Part shown: positions 2,893 to 8,616 of the stretch, one piece after another
Numbering within the stretch: position 1 is the stretch's first letter
Layout of the letters: the number at the start of each line of letters is the position of its first letter
Source: a virus
Taxonomy: Duplodnaviria > Heunggongvirae > Uroviricota > Caudoviricetes
DNA length: 11,411 bases
IMG/VR virus record: IMGVR_UViG_2713896907_000009
Location: 1 to 11,411 of that record
Reading direction: 5' to 3' (one strand)
Position numbers and translations under genes: made by a program
Notes under the pieces: generated by a model
Databases searched by the model: none
Told to the model about the DNA's origin: nothing
Seen by the model: only the letters and a program-made list of their open reading frames with translations

Positions 2893-3237
2893 TCAGAACT
2901 CTTCGATGCTCCAGCCACCACCTGCTTTCTTTGGTTTAACCGTTACCCCGATGATTCGGAACGGATACTGATCTGCGGCGACTTTGGTTTTCACCCTGGC
3001 GTCGTCGGTCCAGAAACCTTTCACTTCGTGCAGTTCCATCTCGCCGGTGGCGAGCATCACAGCAAAATCGGGCGTATAGAACGTGTTGTCAGCTAACCGC
3101 AGCTTGATACCCTCAAATCGATACCAGACGATTTCTCCTGCACGTTTACGCAGCTCAAGGTGCTGGCAATACGCAGATTCTGTTTTGTTCATCTGGCCTG
3201 TTTTGAGTCGACCAAGAGCCTGTATCTGTTTTCTCAT
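2893..3237 (-). CDS. DUF1064-like phage protein (114 aa)
   Basis: ORF 2893-3237; pattern ...Y..LELRKRAGEI...YTPDF.V......ELHEVKG......ARVKTKVAADQYPF matches my recollection of the DUF1064 family found beside phage replication genes. SD GAGGT upstream of the ATG lies inside an operator-like palindrome. Confidence 0.6.
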   Translation of the reverse strand: MRKQIQALGRLKTGQMNKTESAYCQHLELRKRAGEIVWYRFEGIKLRLADNTFYTPDFAVMLATGEMELHEVKGFWTDDARVKTKVAADQYPFRIIGVTVKPKKAGGGWSIEEF

Positions 3238-3240
3238 GAT

Positions 3241-3317
3241 TTACCTCTGAGGTAATTAAAAACCACATAAGACATGAAATCAATAGAATTTAGAATATTT
3301 TATTACCCATCAGGTAA
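3241..3317 (-). promoter_or_regulatory. Leftward promoter flanked by two TTACC-N5-GGTAA palindromes (operator-like)
   Basis: Palindromes at 3241-3255 (TTACC TCTGA GGTAA) and 3303-3317 (TTACC CATCA GGTAA). On the minus strand: -35 TTGATT (plus 3283-3278), 17-bp spacer, -10 TTTAAT (plus 3260-3255). One palindrome is 18 nt upstream of the -35; the other abuts the -10 and includes the SD of the 2893-3237 gene. Confidence 0.45.
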
Positions 3318-3354
3318 TTATCGAGGCGTAAAAAAATGCGCTATCGCGCTGGTA

Positions 3355-4140
3355 TTACTTGATAAATCCTGCCGCCTTTCCCCGCCTGTATTCCTCCATC
3401 AGCCACTGCGCTGGTGTTATTCCCCCAAGGGTGGCGGCGTTAGGCATGCACCCGAAACTTCGCCCTGATGGATGGTAAACGTCTCTCCCTGTGTCCGGAG
3501 GTGTACTCATGGGCTCTGGCTTTGCCTGTATGCTGATCACCGGCTCGGGTATCTGCTGTCCGGAAGCCACCTTTTTCGCCCAATCATCGAGCAGCCTGCG
3601 CGCGTGTTTCTCAACCTCAATCTCGCTAAGCTGGCGCTGATACATTGCACGGCGGGTATCACATACGACCCAGTACATAACCGGATGCCGCCACGGGAAT
3701 CTTTCGGGACCACCAGGATATAAACTTTTTTCCTTGCTGTACCGGTGAAACTCCGCCATCACATCGTCAATGGTGACGCCAAGAACCATCTTGCTGTCTT
3801 TACACCACTTGATGAATTGCCCTGGCGACGGCCAGAACGGAGATTCACTGGCGCGGGCGTGGCGCATACCAGCAGAAACCTGTTCACGGGTTCGGATCCC
3901 CCCTTCGGCAAACGCAGCAATCCACTGCTGTTTTGCAGCAACTTCCTGCTCTGGCGTCTTCAGGTTGGTTACCACTGCCGCCGGAAACAGTTGTTTCAAC
4001 TGTTTGAAAAGGGCATCAACAAGCCTCTCTGCTGACATGTTCACCACGTTGTCATTGTTAGTGTACTGATGCTCATAACCTGACATGCGAGAAAGGGCTT
4101 CTCCGTCACGGTTTTGTATCGCGGTAAAAACGTTGTTCAC
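3355..4140 (-). CDS. Replication protein P-like (helicase loader, lambda P family)
   Basis: ORF 3355-4155; segments PFWPSPGQFIKWC, SLYPGGPERFPWRHPVMYWVV and QIPEPV match lambda P as I recall it (PFLPSPGQFVAWC, GLYPDAESYPWKSNAHYWLV, AIPEPV). Start placed at GTG 4140-4138 (GGGAGGA SD 6 nt upstream), overlapping the upstream stop as GTGA. Confidence 0.7.
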   Translation of the reverse strand: MNNVFTAIQNRDGEALSRMSGYEHQYTNNDNVVNMSAERLVDALFKQLKQLFPAAVVTNLKTPEQEVAAKQQWIAAFAEGGIRTREQVSAGMRHARASESPFWPSPGQFIKWCKDSKMVLGVTIDDVMAEFHRYSKEKSLYPGGPERFPWRHPVMYWVVCDTRRAMYQRQLSEIEVEKHARRLLDDWAKKVASGQQIPEPVISIQAKPEPMSTPPDTGRDVYHPSGRSFGCMPNAATLGGITPAQWLMEEYRRGKAAGFIK

Positions 4141-4976
4141 AAGAAATCCTCCCATGCTTCAGGGCTGTTCCAGTGCGGAACGTTGTTATCAGGTAATGTT
4201 GATTGCTTCTGTCTGCTAATCTGCAGCCGCCTTGCCAGCTTCTGCTCCCACTGTGCCTGATGGTATGCCTTACCCTCAGCCATCCAGTAAATTCTGAACT
4301 CTGCAAGTTCCTGTGCCGTTGGCAGACTGTCCAGGTAGATCCCCTGCAATGAGCTTTTCCGAAGAAAGTCATCTGATGGCTGCCATTGTTCATGCATGAC
4401 AAATTTGCCTAATTGCCCTGGCCCACCAGGAGGAACAAAGTTATTCATCACGGCGTTGTTTGCGCCGGGGTCATGAGGCACAGAATCCCCGGCTTTTGTC
4501 CTGCTCTCCCTCTCTTGGTTAAATGACTGGTTATATGACTGGTTCTGGATCCCGTTTTTGGGATCATTCAACATCCCGTTTTTGGGATCATTCAACATCC
4601 CGTTTTTGGGATCATTCAACATCCCGTTTTTGGGTATATTCCCGTTTTCGGGAACATTACCGTTTTCGGGTTCATTGCTCCATTCCCGGTTGCCTTTAAT
4701 GTTCCCGTTTTTGGTTATATTAAGAGAGAAAACCCGCACTCTTTTCGTCGCTCCCTTTCTCTCTCCGGTATCTGAAATAAGCCCCATTTTCATGAGCGAT
4801 ATAAGCCCGGCCTGTACGGTTTTTTTATTCAGGCAAGTGTCTTTAACGAGGCGTTCTATGCTGGGGTAGCAGAGGTTATATTCATCGGCTCTGTCAGCCA
4901 TCGAGAGCAGTATGAGCTTTAATGACGAGCTACCCGGATCTGTCTCCCAGGCCCAATCTGTTGCATGTCTGCTCAT
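4137..4976 (-). CDS. Replication initiator, O-like (N-terminal DNA-binding domain, Asn-rich repeat linker encoded by iterons, C-terminal domain)
   Basis: ORF 4137-4976, ATG 4976 with GGAG SD. Sits immediately upstream of and coupled to the P-like gene. Contains in-frame 8-aa repeats (PKNGMLND x3) encoded by 24-bp direct repeats, as lambda O contains ori. C-terminal region resembles DnaT/O-type replisome-organiser domains (from memory, unverified). Confidence 0.65.
   Translation of the reverse strand: MSRHATDWAWETDPGSSSLKLILLSMADRADEYNLCYPSIERLVKDTCLNKKTVQAGLISLMKMGLISDTGERKGATKRVRVFSLNITKNGNIKGNREWSNEPENGNVPENGNIPKNGMLNDPKNGMLNDPKNGMLNDPKNGIQNQSYNQSFNQERESRTKAGDSVPHDPGANNAVMNNFVPPGGPGQLGKFVMHEQWQPSDDFLRKSSLQGIYLDSLPTAQELAEFRIYWMAEGKAYHQAQWEQKLARRLQISRQKQSTLPDNNVPHWNSPEAWEDFL
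4547..4700. repeat. Iteron array: three perfect 24-bp direct repeats (4561-4632) flanked by degenerate copies; putative phage replication origin inside the O-like gene
   Basis: ggatcattcaacatcccgtttttg repeated exactly at 4561-4584, 4585-4608 and 4609-4632; partial or degenerate copies at 4547-4560 and 4633-4700. Each unit contains the inverted repeat GGGAT/ATCCC. Confidence 0.6.
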
Positions 4977-5026
4977 GATTAATCTCCGCTATCAGCTTGA
5001 ATGTTGTGGGGAGGAATTAATCATGA
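4973..5026. repeat. Inverted repeat (11-bp perfect arms, extendable to about 15 bp) bracketing the O-like start codon and SD
   Basis: tcatgattaat at 4973-4983 and its reverse complement attaatcatga at 5016-5026. The left arm contains the O-like ATG (4976-4974) and is adjacent to its GGAG SD. Confidence 0.5.
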
Positions 5027-5192
5027 TCTGCTTAATCTCTGCCCTGATGCGACGGTTTGATTCCATGGTGCACTCAACACAGTGTCCGTTGTAAACCCAG
5101 CGTTCACTGTCATGTCCGTGCTTACATGGTTTTCCGGTGTAGTAGCGTTTAAGTCCGCGCTTTGCGGCATCAATACGTGTAATGATTTCCAT
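4992..5192 (-). CDS. Small zinc-finger protein (66 aa), function unknown; occupies the position downstream of cro
   Basis: ORF 4992-5255; start assigned to internal ATG 5192 (MEIITRIDAAK...) because the N-terminal extension MIFFLCQHKITVIPILITGLT looks non-coding and runs into the intergenic terminator region. Product has C-x-H-x-H ... C-x2-C spacing (KPCKHGHDSERWVYNGHCVEC). Confidence 0.45.
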   Translation of the reverse strand: MEIITRIDAAKRGLKRYYTGKPCKHGHDSERWVYNGHCVECTMESNRRIRAEIKQIMINSSPQHSS

Positions 5193-5290
5193 GGTAAGCC
5201 CCGTTATTAGTATTGGGATTACGGTTATTTTGTGCTGACACAAAAAAAAGATCAACCAGATTTGGTTTTTTATTACCTTTGAGGTGCGAA

Positions 5291-5321
5291 TAGATATGAA
5301 AAGACCGCCGAGTGGCGGTCT
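5291..5321 (-). terminator. Putative intrinsic terminator downstream of the Cro-like gene (tR1-like position)
   Basis: Perfect 8-bp GC-rich stem agaccgcc / ggcggtct (5302-5309 and 5314-5321) with 4-nt loop; on the minus strand it is followed by TTTTCATATCT. The T-tract is short (4 T), so efficiency is uncertain. Confidence 0.4.
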
Positions 5322-5342
5322 ACAGAGGGTTGTGGCTGGATA

Positions 5343-5573
5343 TCATGAGTAGAAGAAGTATGCCAGTTCTGCTTTTGAGCGCAGCCATTGTCTTGTTTTA
5401 CAGGCTTTAAAAAGCCCATTCATCAATACCTTACCTGGCATTTTGCGCTTACCTGTTAAGTGAGTCTGGATATAGTGACTCGTCGTTCCGGCTTCCTGTG
5501 CGAAGGCTTCACGCTCATCTGGAGTAAGTGCAAGCCAGTGCTTTTTGAAATCGAAATGTCCGTTATCGCTCAT
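5343..5573 (-). CDS. Cro-like small HTH DNA-binding protein (76 aa)
   Basis: ORF 5343-5573, divergent from the repressor gene across an operator-containing region. Segment EAFAQEAGTTSHYIQTHLTGKRKMPGK resembles the HTH of Cro/YdaS-type proteins. SD is weak. Confidence 0.5.
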   Translation of the reverse strand: MSDNGHFDFKKHWLALTPDEREAFAQEAGTTSHYIQTHLTGKRKMPGKVLMNGLFKACKTRQWLRSKAELAYFFYS

Positions 5574-5608
5574 AGCTATTGCCTGATATTTATTTCAGAT
5601 AATAAATA

Positions 5609-5672
5609 TTCACCCATAAGGTAACAAAAATCAAGGATAGTTACCTATGGGGTGCATTTACCTGTTGGGTAA
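5609..5672. promoter_or_regulatory. Divergent promoter/operator region between the Cro-like and repressor genes with three operator-like sites
   Basis: Sites at 5609-5623 (TCACC CATAA GGTAA), 5641-5655 (TTACC TATGG GGTGC) and 5658-5672 (TTACC TGTTG GGTAA, perfect) in an AT-rich 154-bp intergenic region; -35-like TTGATT on the minus strand. I could not place the -10 elements confidently. Confidence 0.5.
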
Positions 5673-5727
5673 TATTGCTTTAAATTGAATCATCTACTGA
5701 TTCATATATGAGGCGATTTTCCAGAAA

Positions 5728-6312
5728 ATGAAAAGTATCCAGGACGTCCGCAGGCAAAATCTCAACGACTTGATCGACCGTGAATTCAATGGTGTTCAGA
5801 CGCGGATGGCAGAAAAACTTGGAACTCAGGCAAATCTGGTAAACCGCTGGGCTCTTGGCAAGAAGGTTATCGGCGACCAGGTTGCGCGAAAAATTGAAGC
5901 TGCCGCCAATAAACCCCGTAACTGGCTTGATATCGATCGCTCGCTTTCTCAGGAAGGTTTTCAGCCTGTCGGACCAAGCGACATTGGTCAGCTGGCGGCT
6001 CACAACCTGGAACGCTGGATGAGCGAAAGCCGCGACCTTTCAACGCAGGGAAAACTTCACCGCGCATCCGGCGTCGCCCAGGTGACAATCAGCCGCCTGT
6101 TAAACAATGAGGTCAGCGTTTCCATTTCCACCCTGGAGAATGTTGCATCAGCATTCGGGCGTCACGGATATGAACTACTGATTCACCCACACGACCCTGC
6201 GACTATCAACTATGACCGCTCGCGCTACGCTTTGTTACCCGAAACCGAGAAAGCAAAGATCGAAAGTTACATTGAATTTGTCATCAACCAGAACGAAAAA
6301 AACAAACAATAA
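5728..6312 (+). CDS. Phage repressor-like protein with two tandem XRE-type HTH domains and no S24 peptidase domain
   Basis: ORF 5728-6312. HTH 1 about aa 25-70 (VQTRMAEKLGTQANLVNRWALGKK...); HTH 2 about aa 105-150 (LHRASGVAQVTISRLLNNEVSVSISTLENVASAF). C-terminus has no Ser/Lys dyad or Ala-Gly cleavage context. Flanked on both sides by TTACC-N5-GGTAA sites. Confidence 0.65.
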   Translation: MKSIQDVRRQNLNDLIDREFNGVQTRMAEKLGTQANLVNRWALGKKVIGDQVARKIEAAANKPRNWLDIDRSLSQEGFQPVGPSDIGQLAAHNLERWMSESRDLSTQGKLHRASGVAQVTISRLLNNEVSVSISTLENVASAFGRHGYELLIHPHDPATINYDRSRYALLPETEKAKIESYIEFVINQNEKNKQ

Positions 6313-6332
6313 AATCATATTTTTCAGTAAGT

Positions 6333-6358
6333 AAGCCGCCTTCTGGCGGCTTTTTTAT
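6333..6358 (+). terminator. Rho-independent terminator downstream of the repressor gene
   Basis: Perfect 8-bp stem aagccgcc / ggcggctt (6333-6340 and 6345-6352), 4-nt loop ttct, followed by a T-tract (TTTTTTATT). Confidence 0.7.
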
Positions 6359-6368
6359 TGCCTATTTG

Positions 6369-6446
6369 ATTACCTATCGGGTAATTTTTTTAACTCATAT
6401 CTATTGACATCAAACCAAATACGCATAATCATTACCTAAACGGTAA
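6369..6446 (+). promoter_or_regulatory. Rightward early promoter (PL-like) flanked by two TTACC-N5-GGTAA operator-like palindromes
   Basis: Sites at 6369-6385 (ATTACC TATCG GGTAAT) and 6432-6446 (TTACC TAAAC GGTAA), plus a GGTAA half-site at 6456-6460 that overlaps the SD of the first gene. Consensus -35 TTGACA at 6404-6409; the best -10 candidate CATAAT (6424-6429) gives a short 14-bp spacer, so the exact -10 is uncertain. Confidence 0.5.
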
Positions 6447-6465
6447 CAAACCGAGGTAACAAGTT

Positions 6466-6618
6466 ATGCAGTGGAAAATCATCAACGGTTGGTACTGCGT
6501 TACTGCATGCGGATTCATGAGCTGGAAGTTCCGCACCTTACAGGAAGGTATTAAGTGGGCTTTCGTCAGCAAAGAAGCTCGCGATGTGGCCAACGATAAC
6601 GAGATATGGGAGGGCTGA
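6466..6618 (+). CDS. Small Trp-rich protein (50 aa), first gene of the rightward early operon; unknown function
   Basis: Not in the supplied ORF track (below its size cut-off). ATG 6466 preceded by GAGG at about 9 nt; my own translation is MQWKIINGWYCVTACGFMSWKFRTLQEGIKWAFVSKEARDVANDNEIWEG. Its stop is 2 nt before the next gene's ATG and its 3-prime end encodes that gene's SD (GGGAGGG). Confidence 0.4.
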   Translation: MQWKIINGWYCVTACGFMSWKFRTLQEGIKWAFVSKEARDVANDNEIWEG

Positions 6619-6620
6619 TA

Positions 6621-6920
6621 ATGAACGTTAATCAGCAGAAAAATCTTCAAAAAATCATGCTGGCATTCGACAAGGACTACCGCCTGTCAGAACAGCTATA
6701 TGACCGACAAGTTGAACTGATTGAGAGCATCCGACTTCATCAACTGTCCTCAACTTTCGACGTTGTAACAGGCAAAGGCGTTCGTCAGGAAGTGCTGGAG
6801 GCTGCTAAAGACAGCCCTGAGTTCGAAGAACTGATGGATGCCTACCGGCGCGAGGCAATGGCAATTATAGCGCGCTGGGATCTGGCGGATCAGCTTGATG
6901 GGCAGAGGGACGCGGCATGA
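6621..6920 (+). CDS. Hypothetical phage protein (99 aa) immediately upstream of exo/bet
   Basis: ORF-track frame 6606-6920; start placed at ATG 6621 (MNVNQQ...) with GGGAGGG SD at 6 nt. Stop overlaps the exonuclease ATG (ATGA). No family recognised. Confidence 0.6.
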   Translation: MNVNQQKNLQKIMLAFDKDYRLSEQLYDRQVELIESIRLHQLSSTFDVVTGKGVRQEVLEAAKDSPEFEELMDAYRREAMAIIARWDLADQLDGQRDAA

Positions 6921-7738
6921 AACCGGGAATTTATTTCGACATCAGCAACGAAGACTACCACGCAGGTGACGGCGTGAGTAAGTCGCAACTGGACATGGTT
7001 GCCAAGAATCCGGCGCTTCTTAAATGGGTTCAGGCAGCACCAGAAGACGAAGAGAAAAAGTCTGCACTGGATATGGGAACCGCATTGCACTGCCTGCTTC
7101 TGGAACCTGGAGAATTCGACAAACGCTTCATCGTTTCACCGAAATTCGATCGTCGGACAAAACAAGGTAAAGCTGACGAAGAAGCATTTCTTCGTGATGT
7201 GGCGGATATGGGTATTACGGTACTTGATGTCGAGCAGTGGCGAAAACTGGAGCTGATGCGTGATAGCGCAATGGCTCATCCGGCGGCACGCTGGATGTTG
7301 GAAGCACCTGGTTACTGCGAAGCATCAATGTACTGGAACGATGAAGAGACGGGTGAGTTGTGCCGAATTCGTCCAGACAAATGGCTGAACGAGCACAACG
7401 TGATCGTCGACGTGAAAAAGGTTGCAGATATGGACCGTTTTGCACGCCACATCGAGGAATTCCGCTACCACGTGCAGGACGCAATGTACCGCGAAGGCGC
7501 AATGAGGGTTACTGGTCAGCCGCATGGTTTTTTCTTTCTTGCCGTGAGCGAAAGCATTGATTGTGGTCGGTATCCGGTACGCGTGTTCGAGCTGGATGCG
7601 CCGGATGTCGATGCCGGGCACGCTCTGTTCCGCCGGGATCTGAATACCTATCACGAATGCCGCATCAACGATGAGTGGGGCGGAGTGGAAATTATTAAAC
7701 GCCCTGACTGGGCACGTAAACAGGATATGTACGTATGA
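6917..7738 (+). CDS. PD-(D/E)XK family exonuclease (phage recombination exonuclease, RecB-like nuclease fold)
   Basis: ORF 6917-7738. Motifs in order: IRPDKW (D), VIVDVKK (D-x-K), QDAMYREG (QxxxY), the arrangement of RecB/Cas4-type PD-(D/E)XK nucleases. Coupled (ATGA) to the downstream Bet-like gene. Confidence 0.7.
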   Translation: MKPGIYFDISNEDYHAGDGVSKSQLDMVAKNPALLKWVQAAPEDEEKKSALDMGTALHCLLLEPGEFDKRFIVSPKFDRRTKQGKADEEAFLRDVADMGITVLDVEQWRKLELMRDSAMAHPAARWMLEAPGYCEASMYWNDEETGELCRIRPDKWLNEHNVIVDVKKVADMDRFARHIEEFRYHVQDAMYREGAMRVTGQPHGFFFLAVSESIDCGRYPVRVFELDAPDVDAGHALFRRDLNTYHECRINDEWGGVEIIKRPDWARKQDMYV

Positions 7739-8616
7739 GCAATGATATCGCAATCACATCACAACCTGGCGCAACTGTAGGTACTGCTGCGGCAATCTTC
7801 AGCCCGGAGGGCATGAATCAACTGGTGCGTTTCGCGGAGTTGATGTCACAAAGCAAAGCGACTGTACCGAAACATCTTGAAGGCAAACCTGCCGATTGCC
7901 TGGCGGTGACCATGCAGGCGGCACAGTGGGGAATGAACCCGTTCGCCGTGGCGCAGAAAACGCATGTGGTAAACGGAACGTTAGGCTACGAAGCACAGTT
8001 GGTAAACGCGGTCGTATCCTCTTCCAGCCTGCTGGCGACACGCCTGAATTATCGCTGGAGCGGTGACTGGTCGAATGTTAACGGCAAAACAGATAAATCA
8101 CCGAATCTGACGGTAACTGTGTCAGCAGTTCTTAAAGGAGAAGCAGAACCACGTGAGCTTACCATCAGTATGGCGCAAGCCGGAGTGCGTAACTCTCCAT
8201 TGTGGGAACAGGATCCGCGCCAGCAGCTTGCCTATCTTTGCACGAAACGATGGGCTCGCCTGCACGCTCCTGATGTACTTCTCGGTGTTTACACCCCTGA
8301 AGAATTACAGGAAACGGCACCGCGCGTTGAGCGAGACATTACTCCGCAAACAACTACGGCTGCGGGAATGAATAGTCTGATCAACGCTAAAACAGTGAAA
8401 AAGCCTGATGAGCAAACGCGTAAAGCGGATAGCCGTGATCCAGAAGAAATGCTGATGGCCTTTACCAGCGCAGCAATGAATTACAGCACTGTCTCCGAAC
8501 TGGATAAGGCTTACAAATACATTGCACAAAAACTTTCAGATGATGACGAACTGCTGGCAAAAGCCACCGACGTTTACAGCGTTCGTCGGGAAGAATTAAA
8601 CGAAACATCTATGTAA
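7735..8616 (+). CDS. Single-strand annealing protein, Bet/RecT (Red-beta) family
   Basis: ORF 7735-8616. Segments GMNPFAVAQKTHVV, PLWEQDPRQQLAYLCTKRWARL and ERDITP parallel lambda Bet as I recall it (GLNPWTKEIYAF, PWQSHPKRMLRHKAMIQCARL, ERDITP). Sits directly downstream of a nuclease, as in exo/bet and recE/recT pairs. Confidence 0.75.
   Translation: MSNDIAITSQPGATVGTAAAIFSPEGMNQLVRFAELMSQSKATVPKHLEGKPADCLAVTMQAAQWGMNPFAVAQKTHVVNGTLGYEAQLVNAVVSSSSLLATRLNYRWSGDWSNVNGKTDKSPNLTVTVSAVLKGEAEPRELTISMAQAGVRNSPLWEQDPRQQLAYLCTKRWARLHAPDVLLGVYTPEELQETAPRVERDITPQTTTAAGMNSLINAKTVKKPDEQTRKADSRDPEEMLMAFTSAAMNYSTVSELDKAYKYIAQKLSDDDELLAKATDVYSVRREELNETSM

What the first reader, a model, noticed from the sequence alone, without database searches (positions are those of the whole stretch)
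3241..6446. 15-bp palindrome TTACC-N5-GGTAA recurs in four intergenic regions: candidate operator set
Exact or near-exact copies occur at 3241-3255, 3303-3317, 5658-5672, 6369-6385 and 6432-6446, with degenerate copies at 5272-5286 (TTACC TTTGA GGTGC), 5609-5623 and 5641-5655. All lie in intergenic regions: between the P-like and DUF1064 genes, next to the terminator after the Cro-like gene, between the Cro-like and repressor genes (three sites, like OR1-3), and downstream of the repressor (OL-like). I found no perfect copy inside a confirmed coding region; one degenerate copy (TTACC TGTTA AGTGA, 5449-5463) lies inside the Cro-like gene. The motif differs from the lambda, 434 and P22 operators as I remember them. 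The right half-site often coincides with the Shine-Dalgarno of the downstream gene (GAGGTAA before the DUF1064 gene and before the 50-aa ORF), so binding could block both transcription and ribosome access.
Basis: partly seen in the sequence, partly recalled or inferred. Interest (0 to 1): 0.6.

Follow-up and report, generated by a model that had tools for sequence, protein, structure and literature searches.

The report
Prophage repressor operators, already known type
The repeated palindrome TTACC-N5-GGTAA is real and is almost certainly the set of DNA sites where this phiV10/epsilon15-type prophage's repressor binds to keep the virus silent; the same motif is already annotated as the repressor site in phage epsilon15, so the finding is sound but ordinary.

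Summary
The window holds five exact TTACC-N5-GGTAA copies (0.01 expected), all intergenic, plus three to four degenerate copies at positions conserved in relatives. The window is the early/immunity region of a phiV10-like Uetakevirus (about 97% identical to phiV10).

The same motif is already annotated as "protein_bind: repressor, lysogeny" at seven places in the epsilon15 GenBank record. The adjacent gene 5728-6312 is a full-length homologue of the structurally solved SPC32H Rep (PDB 5D50). It is 100% identical to ZX5 ORF21, which silences lytic genes when overexpressed.

Across six reference genomes the sites are syntenic. Their half-sites never vary, although the spacers do and Rep identity falls to about 42%.

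Two pairs (3241/3303 and 6370/6432) lie exactly 62 bp apart and bracket promoter-like elements at a fixed register. Of 112 unique 62-bp pairs in relatives, 110 show this layout. Three sites lie over the predicted divergent cro-like/rep promoters.

Best reading: Rep tetramer operators that control each terminator-separated early transcription unit. The suggestions of blocked ribosome access and a tandem-HTH DNA binder are not supported.

Novelty: already known in kind and simply unannotated in the phiV10 lineage. Two possibly new details are the strict 62-bp promoter bracketing and a spacer composition that differs between Rep clades.

The parts
3241..3255 (.). Promoter-proximal operator of the third early unit (P3). 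TTACCTCTGAGGTAA abuts the predicted -10 and covers the predicted transcription start. On the minus strand its right half and spacer encode the Shine-Dalgarno sequence of the DUF1064 gene (ATG at 3237).
   Evidence: Exact match. The same position, GGTAA-ATC-ATG, is seen in five of six genomes; BUCT711 has 5 nt instead of 3.
3303..3317 (.). Promoter-distal operator of P3 (TTACCCATCAGGTAA), 62 bp from 3241 and just after the terminator of the P-like gene.
   Evidence: The orthologous epsilon15 site (record 35906-35922) is annotated protein_bind repressor.
3255..3283 (-). Predicted P3 promoter on the minus strand: -35 TTGATT (3283..3278), 17-nt spacer, -10 TTTAAT (3260..3255), whose last base is operator position 15/1.
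   Evidence: Read from the sequence. The same register is found in 110 of 112 unique 62-bp pairs. The consensus scan missed it because of its A-at-position-2 rule.
5273..5287 (.). Weak or degenerate site (TTACCTTTGAGGTGC) after the cro-like gene's terminator. It lies 17 nt upstream of a conserved promoter-like TTGATC-17-CAAAAT on the minus strand, ahead of the 66-aa gene and the replication genes.
   Evidence: A site at this position, always with an imperfect right half (GGTGC, GGTAC, GGTGT or GGTAT), occurs in all six genomes.
5610..5624 (.). OR site nearest the cro-like gene (TCACCCATAAGGTAA, 1 mismatch). It lies in the spacer of the predicted leftward PR (-35 TTGATT 5634..5629, or TTGTTA 5627..5622).
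   Evidence: The site is imperfect in every relative, and the TTGATT next to it is conserved in both Rep clades.
5641..5655 (.). Middle OR site (TTACCTATGGGGTGC, 2 mismatches), 31 bp from 5610 and 17 bp from 5658.
   Evidence: The copy at the same position is perfect in epsilon15, SPC32H and BUCT711.
5658..5672 (.). OR site nearest rep (TTACCTGTTGGGTAA, exact). It overlaps the -35 (TTTACC) and spacer of the conserved candidate rep promoter TTTACC-17-TTAAAT (5657-5685).
5728..6312 (+). Rep, the 194-aa lysogeny repressor: N-terminal HTH DNA-binding domain (recognition helix NLVNRW, residues 36-41), middle HTH_3-like dimerisation domain and C-terminal tetramerisation domain.
   Evidence: PDB 5D50, E 4e-42 over the full length. 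Pfam. Alignment. Domain roles from PMC9986798. 100% identical to ZX5 ORF21, which was tested functionally.
5343..5573 (-). Cro-like 76-aa gene, first gene of the leftward early operon. It is a possible second binder of the OR sites.
   Evidence: phrog_35 'transcriptional repressor', E 5.6e-13. No Pfam or PDB match.
6370..6384 (.). Distal OL operator (TTACCTATCGGGTAA), 19 nt upstream of the PL -35.
   Evidence: The epsilon15 orthologue (record 32616-32632) is annotated as repressor binding.
6404..6432 (+). Predicted PL: TTGACA, 17-nt spacer, AATCAT (10 of 12 matches). It would drive the 50-aa ORF, the recombination genes and the genes beyond them.
   Evidence: Fixed register confirmed in relatives.
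6432..6446 (.). Proximal OL operator (TTACCTAAACGGTAA). It starts at the last base of the -10 and covers the predicted transcription start.
   Evidence: The epsilon15 orthologue (record 32554-32570) is annotated as repressor binding.
5302..5321 (-). Intrinsic terminator after the cro-like gene.
   Evidence: Annotated in phiV10.
6333..6352 (+). Intrinsic terminator after rep.
3330..3349 (-). Weak intrinsic terminator (GCGC-GATA-GCGC followed by T7) after the P-like gene. It separates the replication genes from P3.
   Evidence: Read from the sequence. Annotated as a putative terminator in phiV10. It fell below the scan's 5-pair threshold.

Best explanation
The TTACC-N5-GGTAA palindromes (17-bp form ATTACC-N5-GGTAAT) are the operators of the prophage's lysogeny repressor Rep (5728-6312). 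Rep is a member of the epsilon15 gp38 / SPC32H Rep family. Each half-site would be read by one N-terminal HTH domain (invariant recognition helix NLVNRW).

Rep is a tetramer with two pairs of DNA-binding domains, so it can hold two operators at once. The early region is cut by terminators into separate units: cro-like gene; 66-aa gene plus DnaT-like and P-like replication genes; DUF1064 and downstream genes; and, rightward, the 50-aa ORF and recombination genes. Each unit therefore has its own Rep-controlled promoter, which is why the motif recurs in four intergenic regions.

At PL and at P3 one operator sits at the end of the -10 and over the transcription start, and a second sits exactly 62 bp (about 6 helical turns) upstream, beyond the -35. 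The whole promoter is thus bracketed and probably closed in a small loop or clamp. At OR, one imperfect site lies in the PR spacer. Two sites 17 bp apart cover the -35 and spacer of the candidate rep promoter, which would give negative autoregulation.

Induction is expected to work as in SPC32H, through a LexA-controlled antirepressor (Ant) encoded outside the window.

Shown here: the motif, its enrichment, its synteny, its geometry and the protein homology. Inferred: actual binding, the transcription starts, looping and autoregulation.
For: - Enrichment: 5 exact sites against 0.01 expected, all intergenic.
- Prior annotation: the epsilon15 record AY150271.2 annotates seven 'protein_bind repressor / lysogeny' features, and every one coincides with an exact TTACC-N5-GGTAA.
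- Protein homology: Rep matches SPC32H Rep 5D50 over residues 1-190 with E 4e-42. SPC32H Rep is reported to bind palindromic DNA sites as a tetramer (PMC9638917). It has an N-terminal DNA-binding domain, a middle dimerisation domain and a C-terminal looping-type tetramerisation domain (PMC9986798).
- Function: the 100% identical ZX5 ORF21, when overexpressed, abolished free phage and cut holin and endolysin mRNA by 99.97-99.99% (PMC9782041).
- Phylogenetic footprint: syntenic sites occur in six genomes with invariant half-sites and variable N5, although Rep identity falls to 42-44%. The recognition helix NLVNRW is invariant.
- Linkage to Rep: 88 of 119 IMG/VR loci carrying a site pair also encode a Rep homologue within the fetched stretch. 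In species-representative genomes, pairs next to a Rep homologue are at 62 bp in 11 of 14 cases, whereas pairs without Rep are spread flat over 59-65 bp.
- Promoter register: PL is TTGACA-17-AATCAT between 6370 and 6432. Of 112 unique 62-bp pairs, 110 carry the -35 at offset 19 and a -10 that ends on operator position 1.
- Induction module: the phiV10 lineage has an Ant homologue 88% identical to SPC32H Ant, with a LexA box upstream.
Against: - No binding experiment could be run, and the three primary papers were not held (Kropinski 2007, PMC2698709; Kim and Ryu 2013, PMC3807360; Kim 2016, PMC4983836). The experimental status of individual operators therefore rests on a GenBank annotation, on secondary citations and on my memory.
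- The epsilon15 record does not annotate the OR sites.
- The site overlapping the predicted PR is the weakest match, while the best OR site overlaps the candidate rep promoter. This is unlike lambda and makes the OR logic uncertain.
- Promoters and transcription starts are consensus predictions only. The scan found no more promoter-like sites than in shuffles (5 against 4.8).
- The many related loci share ancestry, so the counts of 62-bp pairs are not independent events.
- The cro-like protein might bind the same sites.
Confidence: 0.85

Rival explanations
1. The sites are primarily operators of another phage-encoded regulator, most plausibly the cro-like 76-aa protein (5343-5573), either alone or sharing them with Rep as lambda Cro shares CI's operators.
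For: The cro-like protein matches a PHROG annotated as transcriptional repressor (phrog_35, E 5.6e-13). It is transcribed divergently from rep across the three OR sites. Graded, conserved imperfections of the OR sites would suit differential occupancy by two proteins.
Against: The motif also occurs far from the switch, before terS, the portal operon, ant/tailspike and P3, where a lysogeny repressor makes more sense than Cro. The epsilon15 annotation assigns the sites to the repressor. Rep's recognition helix is invariant, in step with the invariant half-sites. Shared use is not excluded. As the exclusive binder, the cro-like protein is unlikely.
Confidence: 0.08
2. The palindromes act at the RNA level, as small hairpins in 5' leaders that hide the Shine-Dalgarno sequence. 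This is the translational reading of the first reader's 'ribosome access' idea.
For: The 3241-3255 palindrome contains the Shine-Dalgarno sequence of the DUF1064 gene, and each 15-mer can form a 4-5 bp hairpin of -3.0 to -3.5 kcal/mol.
Against: The hairpins are very weak, and in its native context the fold is no better than shuffles (z = -0.56). Distal operators lie upstream of the -35 and are not in the local transcript. Half-site sequences are invariant with no compensatory changes across genomes, which fits protein readout of DNA rather than RNA pairing. No Rfam family matches.
Confidence: 0.02
3. The motif is a by-product of AT-rich promoter architecture (the ends of -10 elements, UP-like tracts) or the site of a host factor, and is not a phage repressor operator.
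For: The proximal sites overlap the -10 end (ATTACC supplies the final AT of the -10). Intergenic DNA here is 65% AT. The epsilon15 record places IHF sites near several operators.
Against: Composition predicts 0.0007 exact sites in the non-coding DNA. The G/C core of each half-site (ACC/GGT) is invariant. Distal sites are not part of any promoter hexamer. Lambda has none. In bacterial genomes the 62-bp spacing appears only next to Rep homologues.
Confidence: 0.03

Closest known systems
Repressor (gp38) binding sites of Salmonella phage epsilon15, as annotated in GenBank AY150271.2. From memory they are also described in Kropinski et al. 2007, Virology 369:234, which I could not read.
   Same: The half-sites are identical (ATTACC-N5-GGTAAT). 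The positions are syntenic: downstream of rep (the OL pair at 62 bp) and between the replication genes and the next unit (the distal P3 site). The repressor family is the same (42% identity, full length).
   Different: The window's Rep belongs to the phiV10/Tyrion clade. Its operators tolerate G/C in the N5 spacer (AT 0.62-0.65, against 0.92 in the epsilon15 clade). It has two OL sites rather than three. The epsilon15 record leaves the OR sites and the proximal P3 site unannotated, and the phiV10 record annotates no operators at all.
Rep-Ant antirepression switch of Salmonella phage SPC32H (PDB 5D50, 5D4Z; Kim and Ryu 2013; Kim et al. 2016)
   Same: Rep is a full-length homologue (E 4e-42). 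The same operator motif occurs at the same places in the SPC32H genome. The Ant homologue in the phiV10 lineage is 88% identical and has a LexA box upstream. Binding of palindromic sites by a tetramer is reported.
   Different: Rep is only about 42% identical while Ant is 88% identical. Ant lies outside this window. Operator-level details of the SPC32H work could not be checked here.
Lambda CI/Cro with OR1-3 and OL1-3
   Same: Divergent rep and cro-like genes are separated by three palindromic sites of graded quality. A second operator cluster lies downstream of the repressor and controls a leftward-type recombination/integration operon.
   Different: The sequence is unrelated, and lambda has no copy. 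The sites are 15 bp, spaced 17 and 31 bp apart, not 17 bp spaced 23-24 bp apart. The outer clusters are 62-bp pairs that bracket a promoter. There are further operators at other promoters. Rep is a non-LexA-like tetramer inactivated by an antirepressor rather than by RecA-stimulated cleavage (secondary sources).
Dispersed-operator repressors such as phage P1 C1 (from general knowledge, not tested here)
   Same: One repressor has many operators spread over the phage genome. In complete Uetakevirus genomes, exact sites also precede terS, the portal operon and ant/tailspike.
   Different: P1 operators are asymmetric 17-mers read by a monomer. Here the sites are symmetric and the protein is an unrelated HTH tetramer.
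Promoter-bracketing repression loops (GalR, LacI O1-O3; from general knowledge)
   Same: Two in-phase operators flank a promoter, and the repressor has a dedicated tetramerisation domain. The SPC32H Rep C-terminal domain was classed with DNA-looping TetDloop domains.
   Different: The separation of 62 bp is much shorter. Looping has not been demonstrated for this family, and PMC9986798 states that the repression mechanism is not extensively characterised.

Membership tests
Uetakevirus (epsilon15-type) Rep operators | Sequence ATTACC-N5-GGTAAT, the inverted repeat annotated as the repressor site in epsilon15 | tested here: met
   The window has five exact 15-mers. All seven annotated epsilon15 sites carry the same 15-mer.
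Uetakevirus (epsilon15-type) Rep operators | Syntenic location relative to rep, the cro-like gene, the replication genes and the PL operon | tested here: met
   The P3, cro-g40, OR and OL regions of six genomes carry sites at the same places and spacings.
Uetakevirus (epsilon15-type) Rep operators | A cognate Rep homologue is encoded next to the sites | tested here: met
   Linkage was also seen in metagenomic and bacterial loci.
Uetakevirus (epsilon15-type) Rep operators | Specific binding of Rep to the sites | not testable with these tools
   No wet experiment was possible, and the primary papers were not held. Secondary sources say SPC32H Rep binds palindromic sites as a tetramer.
SPC32H-type Rep/Ant switch | Rep with an N-terminal DNA-binding domain, a middle dimerisation domain and a C-terminal tetramerisation/Ant-binding domain | tested here: met
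   Full-length alignment to 5D50 (residues 1-190, E 4e-42). Conserved columns are found in all three domains. Oligomeric state was not tested.
SPC32H-type Rep/Ant switch | A small Ant antirepressor under a LexA box | tested here: met
   Met in the phiV10 genome, not in the window itself. p24 is 88% identical to SPC32H Ant, and CTGTATAAATACACAG lies upstream. The window does not cover that region.
Lambda-type CI/Cro switch (LexA-like autocleaving repressor) | Repressor with an S24 peptidase / LexA-like C-terminal domain | tested here: not met
   Pfam finds only HTH-type domains. The best structural relative is the non-cleaving SPC32H Rep.
Lambda-type CI/Cro switch (LexA-like autocleaving repressor) | Three adjacent operators between divergent repressor and cro genes | tested here: met
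   Sites at 5610, 5641 and 5658 lie between the cro-like gene and rep. This is an analogy in layout only.

The most novel reading that the evidence does not exclude
Two features do not appear in the annotations or in the secondary literature I could read.

(1) Operator pairs at a strictly conserved 62 bp (about 6 helical turns) enclose a complete promoter. One site is centred near -62 and the other covers the transcription start. This suggests that a single Rep tetramer clamps the promoter in a micro-loop. The in-phase 31-bp pair at OR would be the half-size version.

(2) The two Rep clades share identical half-sites and an identical recognition helix but differ sharply in spacer composition (AT 0.92, with an obligatory A/T centre, in the epsilon15 clade; unconstrained in the phiV10 clade). 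Any immunity specificity within the genus would then be set by indirect readout of the spacer, possibly giving one-way cross-immunity.
Probability: 0.3. Interest if true: 0.45.

Novelty: already known. Interest (0 to 1): 0.2.

Why it matters
The value is mainly in annotation. The phiV10 record and its many close relatives in E. coli, including O157 typing phages and ZX5, carry no operator features, and the 2022 ZX5 study only speculated about where its repressor acts. This analysis gives a complete, comparative operator and promoter map for the phiV10 lineage. It also explains why the motif recurs: each terminator-delimited early unit has its own Rep-controlled promoter.

The fixed 62-bp promoter bracketing and the clade-specific spacer composition give simple, testable hypotheses for how the structurally unusual tetrameric Rep represses transcription. 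A recent structural paper says this mechanism is still poorly characterised.

Tried and rejected
- Primary papers: I tried to read Kropinski 2007 (PubMed 17825342 / PMC2698709), Kim and Ryu 2013 (PMC3807360) and Kim 2016 (PMC4983836). None is held.
- Literature searches for phiV10, epsilon15 or SPC32H with 'operator' found no paper that defines the operators. The ZX5 paper maps none.
- RNA-level explanation: rejected. The hairpins are weak, there is no covariation and there is no Rfam match.
- Chance or composition: rejected.
- The 5449-5463 copy inside the cro-like gene and the 1332, 6955 and 8462 two-mismatch hits are treated as chance (about 3.4 such hits expected).
- Cro-like protein: Pfam and the PDB sequence search gave nothing. 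Only a PHROG match was found.
- The genome-contig scan returned mostly unrelated taxa with spacings flat over 59-65 bp. These are chance pairs and were useful only as a negative control.
- I did not use the large protein-homology searches or structure prediction. The PDB sequence match already settled the family.

Full report
**1. Where the window comes from**

The region 3000-6700 is 97.4% identical over its full length to Escherichia phage phiV10 and to several sister phages and prophages of the genus Uetakevirus, the epsilon15-like podoviruses. The phiV10 record gives the gene order, and Pfam and PHROG scans agree with it.

- Minus strand: cro-like 76-aa gene (5343-5573), a 66-aa gene (4992-5192), a DnaT-like primosomal gene (4137-4976), a lambda-P-like gene (3355-4155) and a DUF1064 / resolvase-like gene (2893-3237).
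- Plus strand: the repressor (5728-6312), a 50-aa ORF (6466-6618), and then recombination, regulatory and methylase genes up to the integrase.
- The phiV10 record annotates terminators but no operators.

**2. Checking the observation**

TTACCNNNNNGGTAA occurs exactly five times, at 3241, 3303, 5658, 6370 and 6432. The expectation is 0.01, and none of 200 shuffles reached five.

With up to two mismatches there are twelve hits against 3.4 expected. Of the seven inexact hits:
- three are intergenic: 5273, 5610 and 5641;
- four lie in coding sequence: 1332, 5449, 6955 and 8462. This number is about what chance predicts.

In 2893-6920 only 14.6% of the DNA is non-coding. The composition of that non-coding DNA predicts 0.0007 exact sites. 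Lambda has no exact site in 48.5 kb.

**3. The motif is already on record as a repressor site**

The epsilon15 GenBank record AY150271.2 carries seven "protein_bind, repressor, lysogeny" features, at record positions 12-27, 2931-2947, 19895-19911, 32479-32494, 32554-32570, 32616-32632 and 35906-35922. Each one is an exact TTACC-N5-GGTAA, most with the flanking A and T.

Epsilon15 has further exact copies that the record leaves unannotated:
- two between rep and gp39;
- one directly before the RuvC-like gene;
- one before the lysis genes.

From memory, the 2007 epsilon15 genome paper proposed these operators. I could not read it.

**4. The protein**

The 194-aa product of 5728-6312 aligns over residues 1-190 with the repressor of Salmonella phage SPC32H (PDB 5D50) at E 4e-42.

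Secondary sources describe that protein as follows.
- It binds palindromic sites as a tetramer, and the dimer binds only weakly (PMC9638917).
- It has an N-terminal DNA-binding domain, a middle dimerisation domain and a C-terminal tetramerisation domain. The last was classed with DNA-looping "TetDloop" domains and also binds the antirepressor Ant (PMC9986798).
- PMC9986798 also notes that the structural mechanism of repression "has not been extensively characterized".

The Pfam HTH_3 hit at residues 106-147 is therefore the dimerisation module. "Tandem-HTH DNA binder" is misleading.

The window's Rep is 100% identical to ORF21 of phage vB_EcoP_ZX5. Overexpression of ORF21 abolished free phage and reduced holin and endolysin transcripts by 99.97-99.99%. 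That study did not map operators.

**5. Comparative footprint**

I oriented six genomes alike (window, phiV10, epsilon15, SPC32H, Enterobacter phage Tyrion and Klebsiella phage BUCT711) and marked the sites. Every region has sites at the same places.

- Between the replication genes and the next gene: a pair 62 bp apart. The proximal copy ends 3 nt before the start codon (GGTAA-ATC-ATG) in five of the six genomes and 5 nt before it in BUCT711.
- After the cro-like gene's terminator: one site whose right half is imperfect in all six (GGTGC, GGTAC, GGTGT or GGTAT).
- Between the cro-like gene and rep: three sites spaced 30-31 bp and 17 bp apart. The one nearest cro is always imperfect.
- Downstream of rep: a pair 62-63 bp apart, with a third site in the epsilon15, SPC32H and Klebsiella phages.

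The half-sites do not change, while the N5 spacers and the flanks do. Rep identity to the window falls to 78%, 44% and 43%. The helix NLVNRW (residues 36-41), in the position of an HTH recognition helix, is invariant. This matches the invariant half-site.

So 5610 and 5641 are real members, 5273 is probably a conserved weak site, and 5449 is probably chance.

**6. Geometry**

*PL.* The consensus scan finds TTGACA-17-AATCAT at 6404-6432, lying between the operators at 6370 and 6432. The last base of the -10 is the first base of the proximal operator.

*P3.* Read on the minus strand, the 3303/3241 pair has the same layout: operator, 19 nt, TTGATT (3283..3278), 17 nt, TTTAAT (3260..3255), operator.

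*Spacing in viral contigs.* A scan of IMG/VR for two sites 59-65 bp apart returned 119 loci, mostly on contigs of about 40 kb. Spacings were 62 bp in 137 cases, 63 bp in 22, and 61 and 64 bp once each. 88 of the 119 loci encode a Rep homologue (40-100% identity) in the fetched stretch.

*Promoter register.* Of 112 unique 62-bp pairs, 110 have a -35-like hexamer (consensus CTATTGAnn) at offset 19 and a -10-like hexamer ending on operator position 1. Matches of at least 5 of 6 to TTGACA occur at offset 19 in 69 pairs, and at most twice at any other offset.

*Control in bacterial genomes.* In species-representative bacterial genomes the same pattern hits many unrelated taxa, with spacings flat over 59-65 bp. 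These are chance pairs. The pairs beside a Rep homologue are at 62 bp in 11 of 14 cases.

These loci share ancestry, so the counts are not independent events. The constraint on spacing is nevertheless clear.

*OR.* The element TTGATT, read on the cro strand, is conserved in both Rep clades. It places the cro-proximal operator inside the PR spacer. A conserved TTTACC-17-TTAAAT, read towards rep, places the best operator (5658) over the -35 and spacer of the candidate rep promoter.

**7. Mechanism proposed**

Shown here: the sites, their statistics, their conservation, their register relative to promoter-like hexamers, and the protein family.

Inferred:
- Rep tetramers occupy the sites.
- At PL and P3 one tetramer bridges the in-phase distal and proximal operators, about six helical turns apart. 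This encloses the promoter and covers the transcription start.
- At OR, Rep represses PR through the spacer site, which is in phase (31 bp) with the middle site. Rep limits its own synthesis through the 17-bp pair.

Terminators follow the cro-like gene (5302-5321), the P-like gene (about 3330-3349) and rep (6333-6352). Each early unit therefore appears to need its own promoter. That explains why operators recur in four intergenic regions.

Induction presumably follows the SPC32H scheme. The phiV10 genome encodes an Ant homologue 88% identical to SPC32H Ant, with a LexA box (CTGTATAAATACACAG) upstream. Both lie outside the window.

**8. Rivals**

- *The cro-like protein.* Exclusive use of the sites by this protein is unlikely, given the sites at late and structural promoters and the epsilon15 annotation. 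Shared use at OR remains open.
- *An RNA hairpin or Shine-Dalgarno occlusion role.* This is rejected. The hairpins are only -3.0 to -3.5 kcal/mol. The leader fold is no better than shuffles (z = -0.56). The distal sites are not transcribed from the local promoter. The half-sites show no compensatory change, and Rfam finds nothing.
- *Composition or host-factor explanations.* These fail on the statistics and on the linkage to Rep.

It does not hold for the 50-aa ORF, whose GAGGTAA (6454-6460) is a separate lone half-site-like Shine-Dalgarno sequence.

**9. Novelty**

The assignment of this motif to the repressor is public for the type phage, the repressor family has solved structures, and the window's copies are plain orthologues. 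I therefore rate the finding as already known. The practical gain is an operator and promoter map for the unannotated phiV10 lineage.

Two observations may be new.
- The strict 62-bp promoter bracketing.
- A clade difference in the spacer. Sites linked to Reps at least 55% identical to the window's have an N5 AT content of 0.62-0.65, the same as their flanks. Sites linked to epsilon15-clade Reps have 0.92, with A or T at the centre in 88 of 88 unique sites. This hints at indirect readout as a specificity determinant.

Both observations need experiments.

Noticed in passing
window 4549-4634 and 4622-4676 (also 4516-4544): Perfect 24-bp direct repeats (ATCCCGTTTTTGGGATCATTCAAC, 3.6 copies) are followed by 18-bp repeats (3.1 copies) inside the DnaT-like/HTH_36 replication gene. 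They look like origin iterons embedded in the initiator gene, as in lambda O. The terminator scan mis-called them as three terminators.
   Followed up: partly
L003 (SPC32H) 12, 3175, 20013, 24782, 26960; L004 (phiV10) 87, 3252, 20497, 20877, 24692, 26870; L007 (epsilon15) 12, 2932, 19896; L005, L006: In complete Uetakevirus genomes the same motif also precedes terS, the small gene before portal, the ant/tailspike divergent region, the lysis cassette (1 mismatch, conserved) and int (always GGTAT, conserved). Rep may therefore directly control nearly every transcription unit, in the manner of a dispersed-operator regulon such as P1 C1, rather than only PL and PR.
   Followed up: partly
IMG/VR loci L008-L126, grouped by Rep identity: The spacer composition of exact sites differs by Rep clade. 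In the phiV10/Tyrion clade the N5 AT content is 0.62-0.65, like the flanks. In the epsilon15/SPC32H/Klebsiella clade it is 0.92, with the central base A or T in 88 of 88 sites. Half-sites and recognition helix are identical in both clades.
   Followed up: partly
L004 20543-20800 (phiV10 p24) compared with L003 19676-19936 (SPC32H ant): The antirepressor Ant is 88% identical between phiV10 and SPC32H, although their Reps are only about 42% identical. Both ant genes have a LexA box upstream. Ant is reported to bind the Rep C-terminal domain, so this mismatch in divergence is curious.
   Followed up: partly
window 5190-5300 (minus strand): The conserved block GATCAACC-N-TAT-N-TGG contains a promoter-like TTGATC-17-CAAAAT 17 nt downstream of the weak operator 5273-5287. 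It may be a separate Rep-sensitive promoter for the 66-aa gene and the replication genes, located after the cro-like terminator.
   Followed up: partly
L004 41-715 (phiV10 terS annotation): The exact operator at phiV10 87-101 lies inside the annotated terS CDS. In epsilon15, SPC32H and Tyrion the orthologous site lies 20-35 nt upstream of terS. The phiV10 terS start is probably annotated too far upstream.
   Followed up: no
window 6917-7738 and 7735-8616: The window has two overlapping ORFs (273 and 293 aa) where the phiV10 record annotates a single fused 'recET' gene. This is either a real difference or a frameshift in one of the records.
   Followed up: no
window 6454-6460: A lone half-site-like GAGGTAA serves as the Shine-Dalgarno sequence of the 50-aa ORF. 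In the epsilon15, SPC32H and Klebsiella phages a full third operator sits just upstream of that gene's Shine-Dalgarno sequence instead.
   Followed up: partly
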